Assembly (NCBI GenBank): GCA_016292545.1
Contig: JAEDIG010000001.1
Coordinates: 2,412 to 66,411 of the forward strand
Direction: 5' to 3'
Length of the DNA: 64,000 bases
Origin: Bacteroidaceae bacterium
Lineage (GTDB): Bacteria > Bacteroidota > Bacteroidia > Bacteroidales > Bacteroidaceae
Part shown: positions 37,135 to 39,971 of the stretch, one piece after another
How the letters are laid out: every line of letters starts with the position of its first letter
Numbering within the stretch: position 1 is the stretch's first letter
The notes under the pieces: generated by a model
The model's database searches: none
Seen by the model: the letters and a program-made list of their open reading frames with translations, nothing else
Told to the model about the DNA's origin: nothing
Position numbers and translations under genes: made by a program

Positions 37135-39063
37135 ATGTATATCCCAAGATTCATTCCGCTCACAGCGTTTCTTCTGCTTATGATTACATCTTGTTCGCAA
37201 CCGACCGATGACCCACGTGTTTTCAATGAGATGGAGTATACTCCACAGCAAACCACCTTCTGCCTCAATGCTCCCTCCGATGCACAGGAAGTGAAGCTGC
37301 GCCTCTATGAGTCGGCCGTGGCCGGGCAGCCCGTGCGCACCGTTTCCCTCAAGCGTGTGGCCGACGACCGCTGGACGGCTGTTGTGCCGGGCGACCTGAT
37401 GGGCATGTTCTACACCTTCGATATGGGGCGTGGCGAATGTCCCGGCACCTTTGCCAAGGCCGTGGGTGTCAATGGCAAGCGTGCCGCCATCATCGACCTT
37501 TCTGCCACCGACCCCGAGGGCTGGGCCGAAGATGTGCGTCCTGCCCTGGAAACGCCTGCCGACATGGTGGTGTATGAGATGCACCATCGCGACTTCTCCA
37601 TCCATCCCAGCCGTGGCAGCCGTTATCCGGGCAAGTTTCTGGCCCTCACGGAACCCGATAACATCCGGTATCTCCAGGACCTGGGCATCAATGCCGTGCA
37701 GATTCTCCCATCCTATGATTATGCCACGGTCGATGAGAGCCGCCCCGATGTACCCCAATACAACTGGGGCTACGACCCGCTCAACTACAATGTGCCCGAG
37801 GGCTCCTATTCCACCGATGCCACGCGTCCCGAAGTGCGCATCCGCGAATTCAAGCAGATGGTGCAGGCACTCCACCGGGCGGGCATACGTGTGATTCTGG
37901 ATGTGGTGTACAATCATTGCATGAGCATTGACGGCAGCAATTTCCAGCTCACCTATCCCGACTATTACTTCCGCAAACTGGCCGACGGGAAATATTCCGA
38001 CGGATCTGGATGCGGCAACGAAACGGCTTCAGAACGTCCGCTCATGCGACAGTTCATGCTGGAGAGCGTGCGCTATTGGATTGAGGAATACCACATCGAT
38101 GGCTTCCGTTTCGACCTCATGGGCATCCACGACATTGAGACGATGAACCTCATCCGTCAGGAGGTGGACAAGATAGACCCTTCCATCACCATCTATGGCG
38201 AGGGATGGAGTGCCGGCCAGTGTGCCATCGAACAGGAGCGGCTGGCCATGAAGGCCGTCACCTACAAGATGCCGGGCATCGGTGCGTTTGCCGATGACAT
38301 GCGCGATGCCATCCGTGGCCCCTTTAGCGACGACACCAAGCCTGCTTTCCTGGCTGCCTTGCCCGGCCATGAGGAGAGCATCAAGTTCGGACTGGTGGGA
38401 GGCATCCGGCATCCGCAGGTCGACATGGAGCGCGTGAACTACAGCAAGGAACCCTGGACTGCCCAGCCCACCCAGCATGTCAGCTATGTGTCTTGCCACG
38501 ACGACATGAGCCTTGTGGACCGTCTGCGTGCGTCCTTCCCTGGCATCCAGACGGAGGAGCTCATCCGCCTGGATAAACTGGCACAGACCTTCGTCCTCAC
38601 CTCGCAGGGCATTCCATTCCTTTGGGCCGGCGAGGAAGTGCTGCGCGACAAGAAGGGTGTCCACAACTCCTATAACCAGCCGGACTCCATCAATCAGATC
38701 GACTGGACCCATCTGGAGAAGTATCAGGATGTGTTCCGTTATTACCGTGGTCTCATCCAGATGCGCCGTGCCCACAAGGCATTCCGCATGGCCGATGCCG
38801 AGCTGGTGCGCAGCCACATGCTTTTCCTCGATGCCCCCTCTTGTGTGGTGGCTTTCATGCTCGACGGGCAGGCTGTAGGTGACAGCTGGAACCACATTGT
38901 CTGCATCATGAACTCCAACCGCACGCCCCAGAGTGTCACCATTCCCCAGGGAACCTATACGGTGGTTTGCCGCGACGGTCTTGTATGCTCCGATGGCCTC
39001 GACAGCGTGCAGGGCGGCACAGTGACAGTGGGTGCCCAGCAGGCCCTCATTCTTCACGACTAG
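37135..39063 (+). CDS. pulA: Type I pullulanase (GH13), lipoprotein
   Basis: Lipobox MITSC. Type I pullulanase signature YNWGYDP. GH13 regions DVVYNHC, GFRFDLMG, YGEGW, YVSCHD. Confidence 0.9.
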   Translation: MYIPRFIPLTAFLLLMITSCSQPTDDPRVFNEMEYTPQQTTFCLNAPSDAQEVKLRLYESAVAGQPVRTVSLKRVADDRWTAVVPGDLMGMFYTFDMGRGECPGTFAKAVGVNGKRAAIIDLSATDPEGWAEDVRPALETPADMVVYEMHHRDFSIHPSRGSRYPGKFLALTEPDNIRYLQDLGINAVQILPSYDYATVDESRPDVPQYNWGYDPLNYNVPEGSYSTDATRPEVRIREFKQMVQALHRAGIRVILDVVYNHCMSIDGSNFQLTYPDYYFRKLADGKYSDGSGCGNETASERPLMRQFMLESVRYWIEEYHIDGFRFDLMGIHDIETMNLIRQEVDKIDPSITIYGEGWSAGQCAIEQERLAMKAVTYKMPGIGAFADDMRDAIRGPFSDDTKPAFLAALPGHEESIKFGLVGGIRHPQVDMERVNYSKEPWTAQPTQHVSYVSCHDDMSLVDRLRASFPGIQTEELIRLDKLAQTFVLTSQGIPFLWAGEEVLRDKKGVHNSYNQPDSINQIDWTHLEKYQDVFRYYRGLIQMRRAHKAFRMADAELVRSHMLFLDAPSCVVAFMLDGQAVGDSWNHIVCIMNSNRTPQSVTIPQGTYTVVCRDGLVCSDGLDSVQGGTVTVGAQQALILHD

Positions 39064-39086
39064 TTCAGTCCTGTGCTGTTCTGATT

Positions 39087-39127
39087 GCCCCCCCCTCAGC
39101 TCCCCTAAACGGGGGAACGAGGGGGGC
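39087..39127 (+). terminator. GC-rich nested stem-loop after the pullulanase gene
   Basis: GCCCCCCCCTC (39087-39097) pairs with GAGGGGGGC (39119-39127). An inner TCCCC/GGGGA hairpin sits at 39101-39116. No U-tract. Confidence 0.45.
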
Positions 39128-39613
39128 TGCTTGAACAAGCCGAGCGGATGCCAACCTTTACGACGGGAAGGCCTGTGGGCGAAAACATTGGCCATACAGT
39201 GCTCCACAAGGTCATTGTGGTGTATCGCGGTGTGGAAACGGTGATGTGCAAGGAGGTTCATGGGTGAAACGTTTTTTAGTGACGGCATTTATCTGTTTAT
39301 GTGTCTTCTGCAGGTGGTGCCATGCACCCTTACCGGCATTCCGACGGTGCAAAGTTACGACAAGGTTTCCGTTCCTGCAAGAGGTTTCCGACCTGGCGCC
39401 GCCTCGTTTCCGACCTGCCGTGCCGCCGGGCTGCTTCCTCGTGTGTATGCGCGCTCACATGCGTATCGCAGTGGACGCGGGACACCCGCTTCTCAAGGGC
39501 CTCTGGAGGGAGAAAATGGGGTCTCTTTTTTCCCTAACTGGAGAAATTTTGTTACCCAGTTGGGCAGCAAATTTTTTCCAGTTAGGCAGCAATGCGGCAC
39601 TGCCCGATGCCCT

Positions 39614-39865
39614 GAGCGTCCACAGTGTCCCGCGTCCACAGGAAGCGAATTGGGAGATGAAACCTGTATTCTATCTATTAATCAACCGTTCATTTATATA
39701 AACTTCAAGTCTCCATCGCGCGCGCGATATATATTAGTATTTATTAACTTGAAAAATCATTATTTTTCCCTCATAATATCCCTTCCTGGCCTCAGAACAG
39801 GGCAGCGGTGTGGGGGGGTGCAGGTGCAAATCGGTTCCAGTGGACGCGAGACACTGTGGACGCTC
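39614..39865. repeat. 26-bp near-perfect inverted repeats flanking a 200-bp AT-rich core (inverton- or MITE-like)
   Basis: The reverse complement of GAGCGTCCACAGTGTCCCGCGTCCAC (39614-39639) matches GTGGACGCGAGACACTGTGGACGCTC (39840-39865) at 25 of 26 positions. A third partial copy GTGGACGCGGGACAC lies at 39471-39485. The core contains the palindrome ATCGCGCGCGCGAT (39715-39728). Confidence 0.8.
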
Positions 39866-39971
39866 CGGCCAGTGCATCACGATGCCGCAGGAATGCATAC
39901 ATCATCACCGCCACGCCTTTGCCGGAATTCCAGCAGAAGCGTGGCGGTGATATTTTATGCGAAAAGGGGAG

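What the first reader, a model, noticed from the sequence alone, without database searches (positions are those of the whole stretch)
39064..39971. 0.9-kb non-coding gap between convergent genes with an inverton-like 26-bp inverted repeat pair and iteron-like direct repeats
Between the pullulanase stop (39063) and the yfhO stop (39972) there is no credible ORF but a dense repeat architecture.
- A 25/26-matching inverted repeat (39614-39639 and 39840-39865) brackets exactly 200 bp of much more AT-rich DNA. Near the centre of that core is a 14-bp alternating palindrome, ATCGCGCGCGCGAT (39715-39728), followed by (AT)n.
- A third, 15-bp copy of the same repeat (39471-39485) is inverted relative to the left arm. 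This could allow alternative rearrangements.
- GTTTCCG[AT][CT]CTG occurs three times at 19-22-bp spacing (39365, 39384, 39406).
- CCAGTT[GA]GGCAGCAA occurs twice at 22-bp spacing (39556, 39578).

In Bacteroidales, short inverted repeats flanking a few hundred bp are the hallmark of invertible promoters (invertons). Here, however, both neighbouring genes point into the gap, so any promoter would drive an unannotated sRNA or antisense transcription into pulA or yfhO. Alternatives are a MITE or a relic of a mobile element.
Basis: partly seen in the sequence, partly recalled or inferred. Interest (0 to 1): 0.6.

Follow-up and report, generated by a model that had tools for sequence, protein, structure and literature searches.

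The report
Orphan copy of dispersed repeat module
The repeat-rich gap is real, but it is one gene-less copy of a roughly 620-bp non-coding module scattered through this gut Bacteroidales genome and its sister species, and no public assembly shows the flipping expected of an invertible promoter.

Summary
The gap is not a private local switch, however. Positions about 39259-39874 are one copy of a lineage-specific module. There are at least 6 copies or fragments in this genome and at least 9 in the sister species, and none in the other genus genomes searched.

In intact copies the module is the 5' region of HU-HIG genes. It carries a canonical Bacteroidetes promoter on the minus strand, outside the inverted repeat. 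The window copy has lost its gene and sits at a synteny breakpoint.

The repeat arms are mirror-image arrays of three heptamers around an AT-rich core with a conserved (CG)4(TA)n box. A third, two-heptamer array lies 139 bp away. All three arrays co-vary between two subfamilies, and one copy carries a deletion exactly between two of them.

The core holds no promoter motif. It has the same orientation in 10 paralogues and in 15 contigs from 14 samples.

An Mpi-family master invertase is encoded elsewhere in both genomes, so inversion remains possible.

Best reading: a fixed protein-docking module, here a relic. Inverton probability is about 0.2.

The parts
39085..39130 (+). G+C-rich hairpin just after the pullulanase stop; probable pulA terminator. 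Not part of the module.
   Evidence: Sequence. No homology to other module copies.
39138..39261 (-). Separate multi-copy piece. It contains a frameshifted relic of the 3' end of a PDDEXK_9/AAA-ATPase-like gene, and the first codons of a junk ORF that starts at the ATG at 39261 (minus strand).
   Evidence: BLAST to C59, C144, C84, C126, C128, C101 and C76:348-480. There are 11 copies in relative G012.
39262..39349 (-). 5' untranslated leader between the promoter and the ATG. In intact copies of the sister species this ATG starts an HU-HIG gene.
   Evidence: Alignments. HU-HIG is PF18291.
39350..39381 (-). Canonical Bacteroidetes promoter: -7 box TAACTTTG (39357..39350) and -33-like CTTG (39381..39378), with a 20-nt spacer.
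   Evidence: Present in all 6 copies scanned. This is the most conserved block of the unit, 0.99 identity. The same motif occurs in 40 of 41 genus genomes, with about 0 hits for the control.
39365..39417 (.). Three direct repeats GTTTCCG(W)(Y)CTG overlapping and just upstream of the -33 region; operator-like.
   Evidence: Conserved at 0.82-0.97.
39469..39485 (+). Site A: a two-heptamer array (CAGTGGACGCGGGACAC). It is inverted relative to arm L and direct relative to arm R.
   Evidence: A:L complementarity holds in 96.9% of cells, with 5 pairs changed on both sides; 0 of 500 shuffles reach this.
39497..39592 (+). T-run followed by a 26-nt-arm hairpin (39533-39586) built of CCAGTTGGGCAGCAA-type units. 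This is a separate REP-like family with 17 loci in the genome.
   Evidence: Conserved at 0.90-0.94.
39608..39652 (+). Arm L. Its core, 39616-39639, is GCGTCCA-CA-GTGTCCC-GCGTCCA-C: three heptamers at offsets 0, 9 and 16.
   Evidence: 100% conserved within subfamily 1.
39640..39839 (.). AT-rich core with conserved blocks, including ATCGCGCGCGCGAT+(TA)n (39715-39735) and AGTATTTATTAAC. No TAnnTTTG on either strand.
   Evidence: The same (CG)4(TA)n box occurs in an unrelated module at C150.
39827..39871 (-). Arm R, the mirror image of arm L (core 39840-39863).
   Evidence: L:R complementarity holds in 93.2% of cells, with 7 pairs changed on both sides; 0 of 500 shuffles reach this.
39866..39891 (.). 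Right edge of the unit. It is homologous to the 3' end of a 196-aa ORF that precedes the module in the sister species.
   Evidence: Alignment.
39895..39960 (.). Hairpin with 33-nt arms next to the yfhO stop; probable terminator. Not part of the module.
   Evidence: I2. Homology with the sister species resumes at about 39962.

Best explanation
Positions about 39259-39874 are an orphaned copy of a lineage-specific, duplicating non-coding module. Where the module is intact, it forms the 5' control region of HU-HIG genes.

The module has two parts.
1. A fixed canonical promoter on the minus strand, with three short direct repeats around its -33 region.
2. Further upstream, three co-evolving arrays of GYGTCC(A/C) heptamers. 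Two three-unit arrays are mirror images around an AT-rich core that is easily melted or bent and carries a central (CG)4(TA)n box. A third, two-unit array lies 139 bp away.

I read these arrays as docking sites for a sequence-specific DNA-binding protein, either an initiator or a regulator. The core would be the DNA that this protein opens or loops. On this reading the orientation is fixed and the core is not a flip-flop promoter.

**Shown:** the anatomy, the family, the promoter, the co-variation, the collinearity of all copies and the orphan status.
**Inferred:** protein docking, and what it achieves.

At this locus the module no longer controls a gene. It marks a rearrangement junction between pulA and yfhO. 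At most it drives antisense transcription into the 3' end of pulA.
For: **A family, not a one-off**
- Copies in this genome: C4:5730-6276, C76:1-480 plus the end of C83, C187, C90, C180 and C145.
- The sister species G340 (87-90% nucleotide identity in the flanking genes) has at least 9 copies in two subfamilies.
- No copies were found in 100 other genus genomes or 400 family genomes searched.

**Gene association and orphan status**
- The left end of the unit is always a start codon. In G340 C17 and C1 that codon starts HU-HIG genes.
- pulA and yfhO lie on different contigs in G340, with the break exactly at the gap.

**Promoter**
- The canonical promoter lies outside the repeat. The core has none.

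**Fixed orientation**
- All copies are collinear, as are 15 contigs from 14 samples.

**Arrays behave as a functional set**
- The heptamers change from GTCCAC/GTCCC to GTTCC at all three sites together.
- The sites are 94-100% conserved against 66-88% for most neighbouring blocks.

**The design recurs**
- The same design, with other 7-9-mers, recurs at 9 or more loci in this genome.
- One such locus abuts a primase gene.
- The only two DUF3987-plus-primase gene pairs in G340 each lie about 0.8 kb from a unit.
- Mirror-image iterons around an AT-rich centre, specific to a cognate Rep protein, are the SaPI origin design (PMC9371898).
Against: - No binding protein has been identified.
- Most copies, and all copies in this genome, have neither an HU-HIG gene nor a primase/helicase gene next to them.
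- Two array specificities coexist in G340 with no visible second cognate protein.
- The DUF3987 protein shows no sequence match to solved Rep structures or to PHROGs.
- The arms are identical over 24 nt including the spacers between heptamers, which iterons do not require.
- A precise A-by-R deletion (C90) and an Mpi-family invertase in both genomes fit recombination sites equally well.
- Consensus assemblies cannot exclude a minority flipped state. PMC11892184 reports real invertons with a near-universal preference for one orientation.
Confidence: 0.4

Rival explanations
1. The module is a three-site DNA switch (inverton family) served in trans by the Mpi-family master invertase. L-by-R recombination would flip the 200-bp core, A-by-L would flip the 139-bp hairpin segment, and A-by-R would delete both. 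The switch would modulate the downstream fixed promoter or read-through into it.
For: - The repeat length (24-26 nt) and segment size (about 200 bp) fit Bacteroidales invertons.
- The family is dispersed with shared repeats and has no local recombinase. Both genomes carry one Mpi-family invertase (NF009949, 316.9 bits against a cut-off of 272). Only 9 of 100 other genus genomes have a homologue.
- C90 is exactly the predicted A-by-R deletion product.
- The repeats are more conserved than the core, and the three sites evolve in concert.
- Contigs break inside the core at the start of C76 and the end of C83.
- B. fragilis has a precedent with more than two repeats at one invertible promoter (PMC4747536).
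Against: - The core has no promoter motif, whereas 14 of 15 B. thetaiotaomicron invertons examined in PMC11892184 carry one.
- No flip was seen among 10 paralogues or 15 contigs.
- The site is built of direct heptamers, not the dyad expected of a serine-invertase crossover site.
- No ARACGTWCGT-type repeat pairs occur in the genome (that consensus is quoted from my memory of Coyne 2003).
- Two site specificities coexist in one genome that has only one invertase.
- No site lies next to the invertase gene.
Confidence: 0.22
2. The module is a foldback-type non-autonomous mobile or duplicative element, or simply the decaying remnant of one, with no present function. On this reading the repeats are former terminal or subterminal binding arrays kept alike by gene conversion.
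For: - Copy number is lineage-specific.
- Duplications date to around or after speciation (89-92% identity between copies at non-orthologous sites).
- Sites filled in G340 are empty in this genome (C102, C71).
- Many copies lie between convergent genes and at synteny breaks.
- The right boundary is sharp, at arm R.
- Gene conversion is visible in subfamily 2, where A and R share 25 nt.
Against: - There are no target-site duplications.
- The inverted-repeat pair never occurs outside the larger unit.
- The left boundary is a start codon with variable extension, as expected for paralogous gene 5' regions.
- Filled and empty sites differ by larger, ragged indels.
- The sites are far more conserved than neutral decay predicts.
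- Nothing similar was found in phage, plasmid, viral or JGI metagenome collections.
Confidence: 0.2
3. The element works as RNA. Read-through transcripts would fold into a long L:R stem or, alternatively, an A:L stem, acting as a processing, insulating or attenuating structure upstream of the HU-HIG promoter.
For: - The fold is strong (z = -7.9).
- There are compensatory changes in both helices.
- The two arm mismatches seen (own copy; G340 C17/C1) would be G-U pairs on the minus strand.
Against: - The structure lies upstream of the only recognisable promoter.
- No Rfam family reaches its threshold; the best hits are microRNA hairpins at E of about 0.04.
- The co-variation amounts to essentially one evolutionary event.
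- Perfect 24-bp identity with no spread of G-U pairs points to constraint at the DNA level.
Confidence: 0.08

Closest known systems
Mpi-controlled invertible promoters of Bacteroides fragilis (one serine invertase, many dispersed sites)
   Same: A dispersed family of about 200-bp AT-rich segments bounded by shared repeats of about 20-26 nt. There is no local recombinase, and an Mpi-family invertase is encoded elsewhere in the genome.
   Different: The segment holds no promoter. The repeat is built of direct heptamers and does not resemble the B. fragilis consensus. No second orientation was seen. There is a third site. The downstream genes are HU-HIG genes or nothing, not capsule loci.
SaPI/PICI iteron replication origins (PMC9371898)
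   Same: Short repeats point in opposite directions on each side of an AT-rich centre. The repeat sequence differs between related elements. In the sister species, two copies lie beside a primase gene and a DUF3987 gene.
   Different: The module is not immediately downstream of a rep gene. There are only three repeats per arm plus a distant third array. Most copies have no initiator gene. The DUF3987 protein is not detectably related to SaPI Rep by sequence.
REP/BIME extragenic mosaic repeats of enterobacteria (from my own knowledge)
   Same: Extragenic position, often between convergent genes. Palindromic units in alternating orientation around a bendable centre. Many copies. A link to HU/IHF-type proteins.
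   Different: This module is far larger, carries a promoter and a gene start, and has lineage-specific arrays. A RAYT transposase was not tested for.
MITEs
   Same: Inverted terminal-like repeats, a non-coding AT-rich interior, multiple copies, and presence/absence differences between sister species.
   Different: There are no target-site duplications. The repeats are internal to a larger conserved unit. No cognate transposase was found.

Membership tests
Bacteroidales invertible promoter (inverton) | Inverted repeats of about 10-40 nt flanking about 100-800 bp | tested here: met
   25/26 match over 26 nt, bracketing 200 bp.
Bacteroidales invertible promoter (inverton) | Promoter (-7 TAnnTTTG) inside the invertible segment | tested here: not met
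   No match on either strand of the core in any of 9 copies. The only match lies outside, at 39350-39357 on the minus strand.
Bacteroidales invertible promoter (inverton) | Both orientations present in a population | tested here: inconclusive
   No flipped form among 10 paralogues and 15 assembled contigs from 14 samples. Assemblies give only the majority state.
Bacteroidales invertible promoter (inverton) | A site-specific recombinase, adjacent or global | tested here: inconclusive
   None in the window or near any copy. One Mpi-family invertase is encoded in trans. Its link to these sites is untested.
Bacteroidales invertible promoter (inverton) | A gene placed so that it can be switched | tested here: not met
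   Both neighbours converge on the gap. Other copies do face genes: HU-HIG genes, and a HlyD/ABC operon at the start of C76.
B. fragilis Mpi target sites | Repeat containing the ARACGTWCGT consensus (quoted from memory of Coyne 2003) | tested here: not met
   The arms lack it. There are no inverted pairs of it anywhere in the genome, and 11 single hits is about the chance expectation.
SaPI/PICI-type iteron origin | At least 2 iterons on each side of an AT-rich centre, pointing in opposite directions | tested here: met
   Three heptamers per arm at offsets 0, 9 and 16, in mirror image, around a core of 0.33-0.36 G+C.
SaPI/PICI-type iteron origin | Location beside the cognate initiator-helicase gene | tested here: not met
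   None in the window or near any copy in this genome. In G340, 2 of at least 9 copies lie about 0.8 kb from a DUF3987-plus-primase pair.
SaPI/PICI-type iteron origin | Initiator binds the repeats and melts the centre | not testable with these tools
   Needs gel-shift and replication assays.
MITE | Terminal inverted repeats at the element's ends, with target-site duplications | tested here: not met
   Homology continues on both sides of the repeats. No duplications appear at filled versus empty sites.
MITE | Many copies in unrelated contexts | tested here: inconclusive
   About 6 to 12 copies per genome in varied contexts, but always as part of the roughly 620-bp unit.
Known RNA families (Rfam 15) | Match reaching a family's gathering score | tested here: not met
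   The best hits are microRNA hairpin models at 25 bits, against thresholds of 80.

The most novel reading that the evidence does not exclude
The units, together with the wider class of mirror-array modules in this genome, are promoter-less recombination modules served by the Mpi-family invertase. They would flip, excise (A by R) and reinsert. In doing so they would spread promoter-plus-HU-HIG cassettes and seed chromosomal rearrangements. That would be a mobile, three-site variant of the Bacteroidales inverton.
Probability: 0.12. Interest if true: 0.75.

Novelty: new variant of a known kind. Interest (0 to 1): 0.42.

Why it matters
**For inverton calling.** Reference-only methods that look for a repeat pair around a short AT-rich stretch would call this locus, and at least 9 similar loci in this genome, as invertons. 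The comparative evidence argues that a whole class of such structures may be something else. Examples like this are needed to calibrate inverton catalogues for gut Bacteroidales.

**For HU-HIG genes.** The module ties the poorly understood, rapidly expanding HU-HIG genes to a conserved upstream architecture with co-evolving binding arrays. That gives a concrete handle for testing what these proteins, or the primase/DUF3987 islands next to them, recognise.

**For this window.** The module marks a rearrangement junction at the end of a starch-utilisation locus, and a second inverted copy lies 41 kb away on the same contig.

Tried and rejected
- **Rfam:** a permissive scan gave nothing meaningful.
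- **Exact-protein look-ups of pulA and yfhO** in other assemblies found nothing on record.
- **The 24-mer** was not found in JGI metagenomes or viral contigs. The unit was not found in plasmids or phages.
- **The tyrosine recombinase 480 bp from one sister-species copy** is housekeeping xerC, in the conserved rpsU-xerC-hpf context.
- **The 246-aa ORF through the core and the 419-aa ORF antisense to pulA** are rejected as genes.
- **B. fragilis Mpi consensus:** no pairs in the genome.
- **DUF3987 protein** against solved structures, PHROGs and NCBIfam gave no informative match. It is not significantly similar to the C135 462-aa protein.
- **Literature and supplement searches** for the repeat words found nothing relevant. 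Coyne 2003 is not held in the library.
- **Empty-site comparison for pulA-yfhO** is impossible, because the two genes are not neighbours in any relative searched.

Full report
**Observation**

- The 26-nt arms 39614-39639 and 39840-39865 match 25/26 and bracket 200 bp. With looser matching they extend to 45 nt at 87%.
- The palindrome ATCGCGCGCGCGAT lies at 39715-39728.
- A third 15-nt copy lies at 39471-39485.
- There are three GTTTCCG.. repeats and two CCAGTTRGGCAGCAA repeats.
- The core falls to 0.33-0.36 G+C, against about 0.58 outside.
- The neighbours are a pullulanase (+) and a YfhO protein (-), converging on the gap.
- The central 15-mer occurs 13 times in the genome with at most one mismatch, against 0 for the reversed control.
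- The strand folds with z of about -7.9 as RNA and -7.4 as DNA.
- Rfam gives nothing above noise.

**The gap is one copy of a family**

BLAST of the gap against the window's own 2.5-Mb, 202-contig assembly and a pattern search show other copies of about 39259-39874.
- A full copy lies at C4:5730-6276 (83% identical).
- A half copy lies at the very start of the window's own contig (C76:1-480, 92%, inverted, 41 kb away). Its other half is probably the end of C83.
- A diverged copy lies on C187.
- Fragments lie on C90, C180 and C145.

The 24-mer occurs elsewhere in the public species-representative genomes in only one Prevotellaceae MAG (CAMBDA01, handle G340) and one short, probably mis-binned contig. 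It was not found in 400 other genomes of the family. Neither the core nor the site-A region was found in 100 other genomes of the genus. JGI metagenomes, viral contigs, plasmids and phages also gave nothing. G340 is a sister species, 87-90% identical in the flanking genes. It carries four close copies and at least five copies of a second subfamily.

**What the unit is**

In every copy the left end is a start codon on the minus strand (39261 here). In G340 contigs C17 and C1 that codon begins a 188-aa HU-HIG protein (PF18291). Several other copies keep only the first 3-20 codons of such a gene.

About 90 nt upstream lies a perfect Bacteroidetes -7 box, TAACTTTG (39357..39350, minus strand). A CTTG lies 20 nt further up. 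This is the most conserved block of the unit (0.99). Its extended form occurs 1-20 times in 40 of 41 genus genomes, with essentially no hits for the control. The three GTTTCCG repeats straddle its -33 region.

The 'leader' is therefore an ordinary outward-facing promoter region, and the inverted repeat lies 260-510 bp upstream of it. HU-HIG genes are known for lineage-specific expansion, rapid divergence and loss (PMC5499826). That explains a dispersed family of their 5' regions with many gene-less copies.

**The window copy is an orphan at a rearrangement junction**

Beyond the ATG it continues into a separate multi-copy piece that contains a frameshifted relic of a PDDEXK_9 gene 3' end. It then runs into the antisense strand of pulA. 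In G340 the pulA side lies on contig C19 and the yfhO side on C8. Homology ends at 39063 and resumes at about 39962. No island gene of G340 (DUF3987, primase, the 196-aa ORF, the HU-HIG gene) has a DNA homologue in this genome.

**Anatomy of the repeats**

- Arm L reads GCGTCCA-CA-GTGTCCC-GCGTCCA-C, which is three heptamers at offsets 0, 9 and 16.
- Arm R is its mirror image.
- Site A holds the last two heptamers, in the orientation of R.
- In the second subfamily all three sites read GCGTTCC instead, at the same offsets.
- Counted on nine units, L:R is complementary in 93.2% of cells, with 7 pairs changed on both sides. A:L is complementary in 96.9%, with 5 such pairs. No shuffle out of 500 reaches either value, and slid registers give 24-56%. 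This is essentially one evolutionary event, so it shows concerted change rather than repeated compensation.
- In subfamily 2, A and R share 25 nt, a sign of gene conversion.
- The sites are 94-100% conserved within subfamily 1, while most neighbouring DNA is 66-88%.
- The core is itself conserved between subfamilies, including the (CG)4(TA)n box.

**Evidence bearing on inversion**

For:
- The geometry fits.
- Copy C90 has exactly the product of recombination between the direct repeats A and R. It keeps the leader, a single full site and the right flank, and lacks the 370 bp between.
- Contigs break inside the core at the start of C76 and the end of C83.
- Both genomes encode one small serine recombinase that NCBIfam scores as a master DNA invertase of the Mpi family (316.9 bits against a cut-off of 272). 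It lies next to a WYL-type gene. Homologues occur in only 9 of 100 other genus genomes.

Against:
- No TAnnTTTG occurs on either strand of the core in any copy.
- The core and the A-L segment have the same orientation relative to the leader in all ten full copies of both species.
- The same holds in 15 contigs assembled from 14 different samples of the G340 species, at two loci.
- The two contig-end halves are also in the standard configuration.
- No recombinase gene lies near any copy. The xerC gene beside one copy is the housekeeping gene.
- The site is made of direct heptamers, not a dyad.
- No site lies near the invertase gene.
- Two site specificities coexist with a single invertase.

Some real invertons show a near-universal preference for one orientation (PMC11892184), so assemblies cannot close the question. 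I put the switch at about 0.2.

**A wider class**

A genome-wide scan for inverted repeats 50-700 bp apart found the same design with other words.
- GGTTACC x3: C169:7681-7866 and C45:4943-5267. The C45 module also has outer arrays in the opposite orientation, like site A.
- GTTCCAGTT: C135:35035-35189.
- GTTGCAGTT x3: C95:139-406.
- ATGGTC..GATGGTCAATTGTCAT: C61:23277-23429 and C164:1651-1803.
- AAGTTAAC arrays: C150:14015-14495, C24 and C135:6000-6176.

The C150 core carries the same ATCGCGCGCGCG-TATATAT box. None of these cores has a TAnnTTTG except one weak case. The C135 module abuts a 462-aa gene followed by a CHC2 primase and an HU-HIG gene. C164 holds the genome's only DUF3987 gene. 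In G340 the only two DUF3987-plus-primase pairs each lie about 0.8 kb from a unit.

Mirror-image short repeats around an AT-rich centre, with repeat sequences matched to a cognate initiator, are the design of SaPI origins (PMC9371898). Earlier notes of this scan reached similar readings on other genomes. I treat those notes as leads, not evidence. Against a strict origin reading, the DUF3987 protein has no detectable match to solved Rep proteins or PHROGs, and most units lack any such neighbour.

**Dynamics**

- Units at non-orthologous sites are 89-92% identical, about the interspecies distance. Older paralogues are 77-81% identical, and the two subfamilies 72-75%.
- The G340 unit between rsmF and rpsU is orthologous to the end of C180 here.
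- Two subfamily-2 units of G340 have empty sites in this genome (C102, C71). The differences are ragged indels without target duplications.
- The C150 module is absent at the orthologous G340 site.
- The family therefore duplicates and is lost quickly, but not as a clean cut-and-paste element.

**Verdict**

The best-supported account is an orphaned copy of a dispersed HU-HIG 5' control module. Its inverted arms are co-evolving heptamer arrays around a meltable core, most simply protein-docking sites of fixed orientation, whether origin-like or operator-like. At this locus it has no gene to control.

Rivals are an Mpi-served three-site switch (0.22), a defunct foldback-type mobile element (0.2) and an RNA structure (0.08).

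Noticed in passing
G000 contig C171:483-2012 (outside the window); same pair in G340:C30: An Mpi-family master DNA invertase (199 aa; NF009949, above its cut-off) lies directly after a 302-aa WYL-type protein on a 2-kb contig. Its targets in this genome are unknown, and no B. fragilis-type repeat pairs exist.
   Followed up: partly
G000 contigs C169:7681-7866, C45:4943-5267, C135:35035-35189, C95:139-406, C61:23277-23429, C164:1651-1803, C150:14015-14495, C24:6251-6430, C135:6000-6176: A class of modules with mirror-image arrays of tandem 7-9-mers around AT-rich, (TA)n-rich cores, with at least five different repeat words. One abuts a primase operon. The C150 module shares the (CG)4(TA)n box of the window core and is absent at the orthologous site of the sister species.
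   Followed up: partly
G000 contig C190:7959-8687: A 59-nt inverted repeat, formed by the 5' ends of two SusC-like genes, encloses 605 bp that carry two canonical TAnnTTTG promoters. This is a better candidate for a genuine invertible promoter or shufflon than the finding itself.
   Followed up: no
window 39533-39592, and 16 other loci in the genome: A REP-like family of 55-60-nt hairpins built from CCAGTTGGGCAGCAA-type units at about 22-bp spacing. They usually sit just after a T-run at gene ends.
   Followed up: partly
window 39138-39261: A separate multi-copy piece. It contains a frameshifted relic of a PDDEXK_9/AAA-ATPase-like gene 3' end. Copies lie near several contig ends, and there are 11 copies in one relative (G012).
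   Followed up: partly
G000 contig C76:1-480 (2.4 kb before the window start): An inverted, 92%-identical copy of the unit lies 41 kb from the window copy on the same contig. Its promoter faces the HlyD/ABC/FtsX efflux operon that opens the window. The contig begins 10 nt inside the core. Recombination between the two copies would invert the whole starch-utilisation locus.
   Followed up: partly
G000 contig C171:1-55 and at least 20 other contig ends: A 55-nt repeat (TCAGGGCGTGCTCATACGCTC...GAAAGTTGAAT) lies within about 100 nt of many contig ends. It is probably the edge of a multi-copy element that fragments the assembly.
   Followed up: no
L023:5372-5551 (G340 contig C9): One sister-species copy has an insertion of about 165 bp inside the AT-rich core. 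This shows that the core tolerates large length changes.
   Followed up: no
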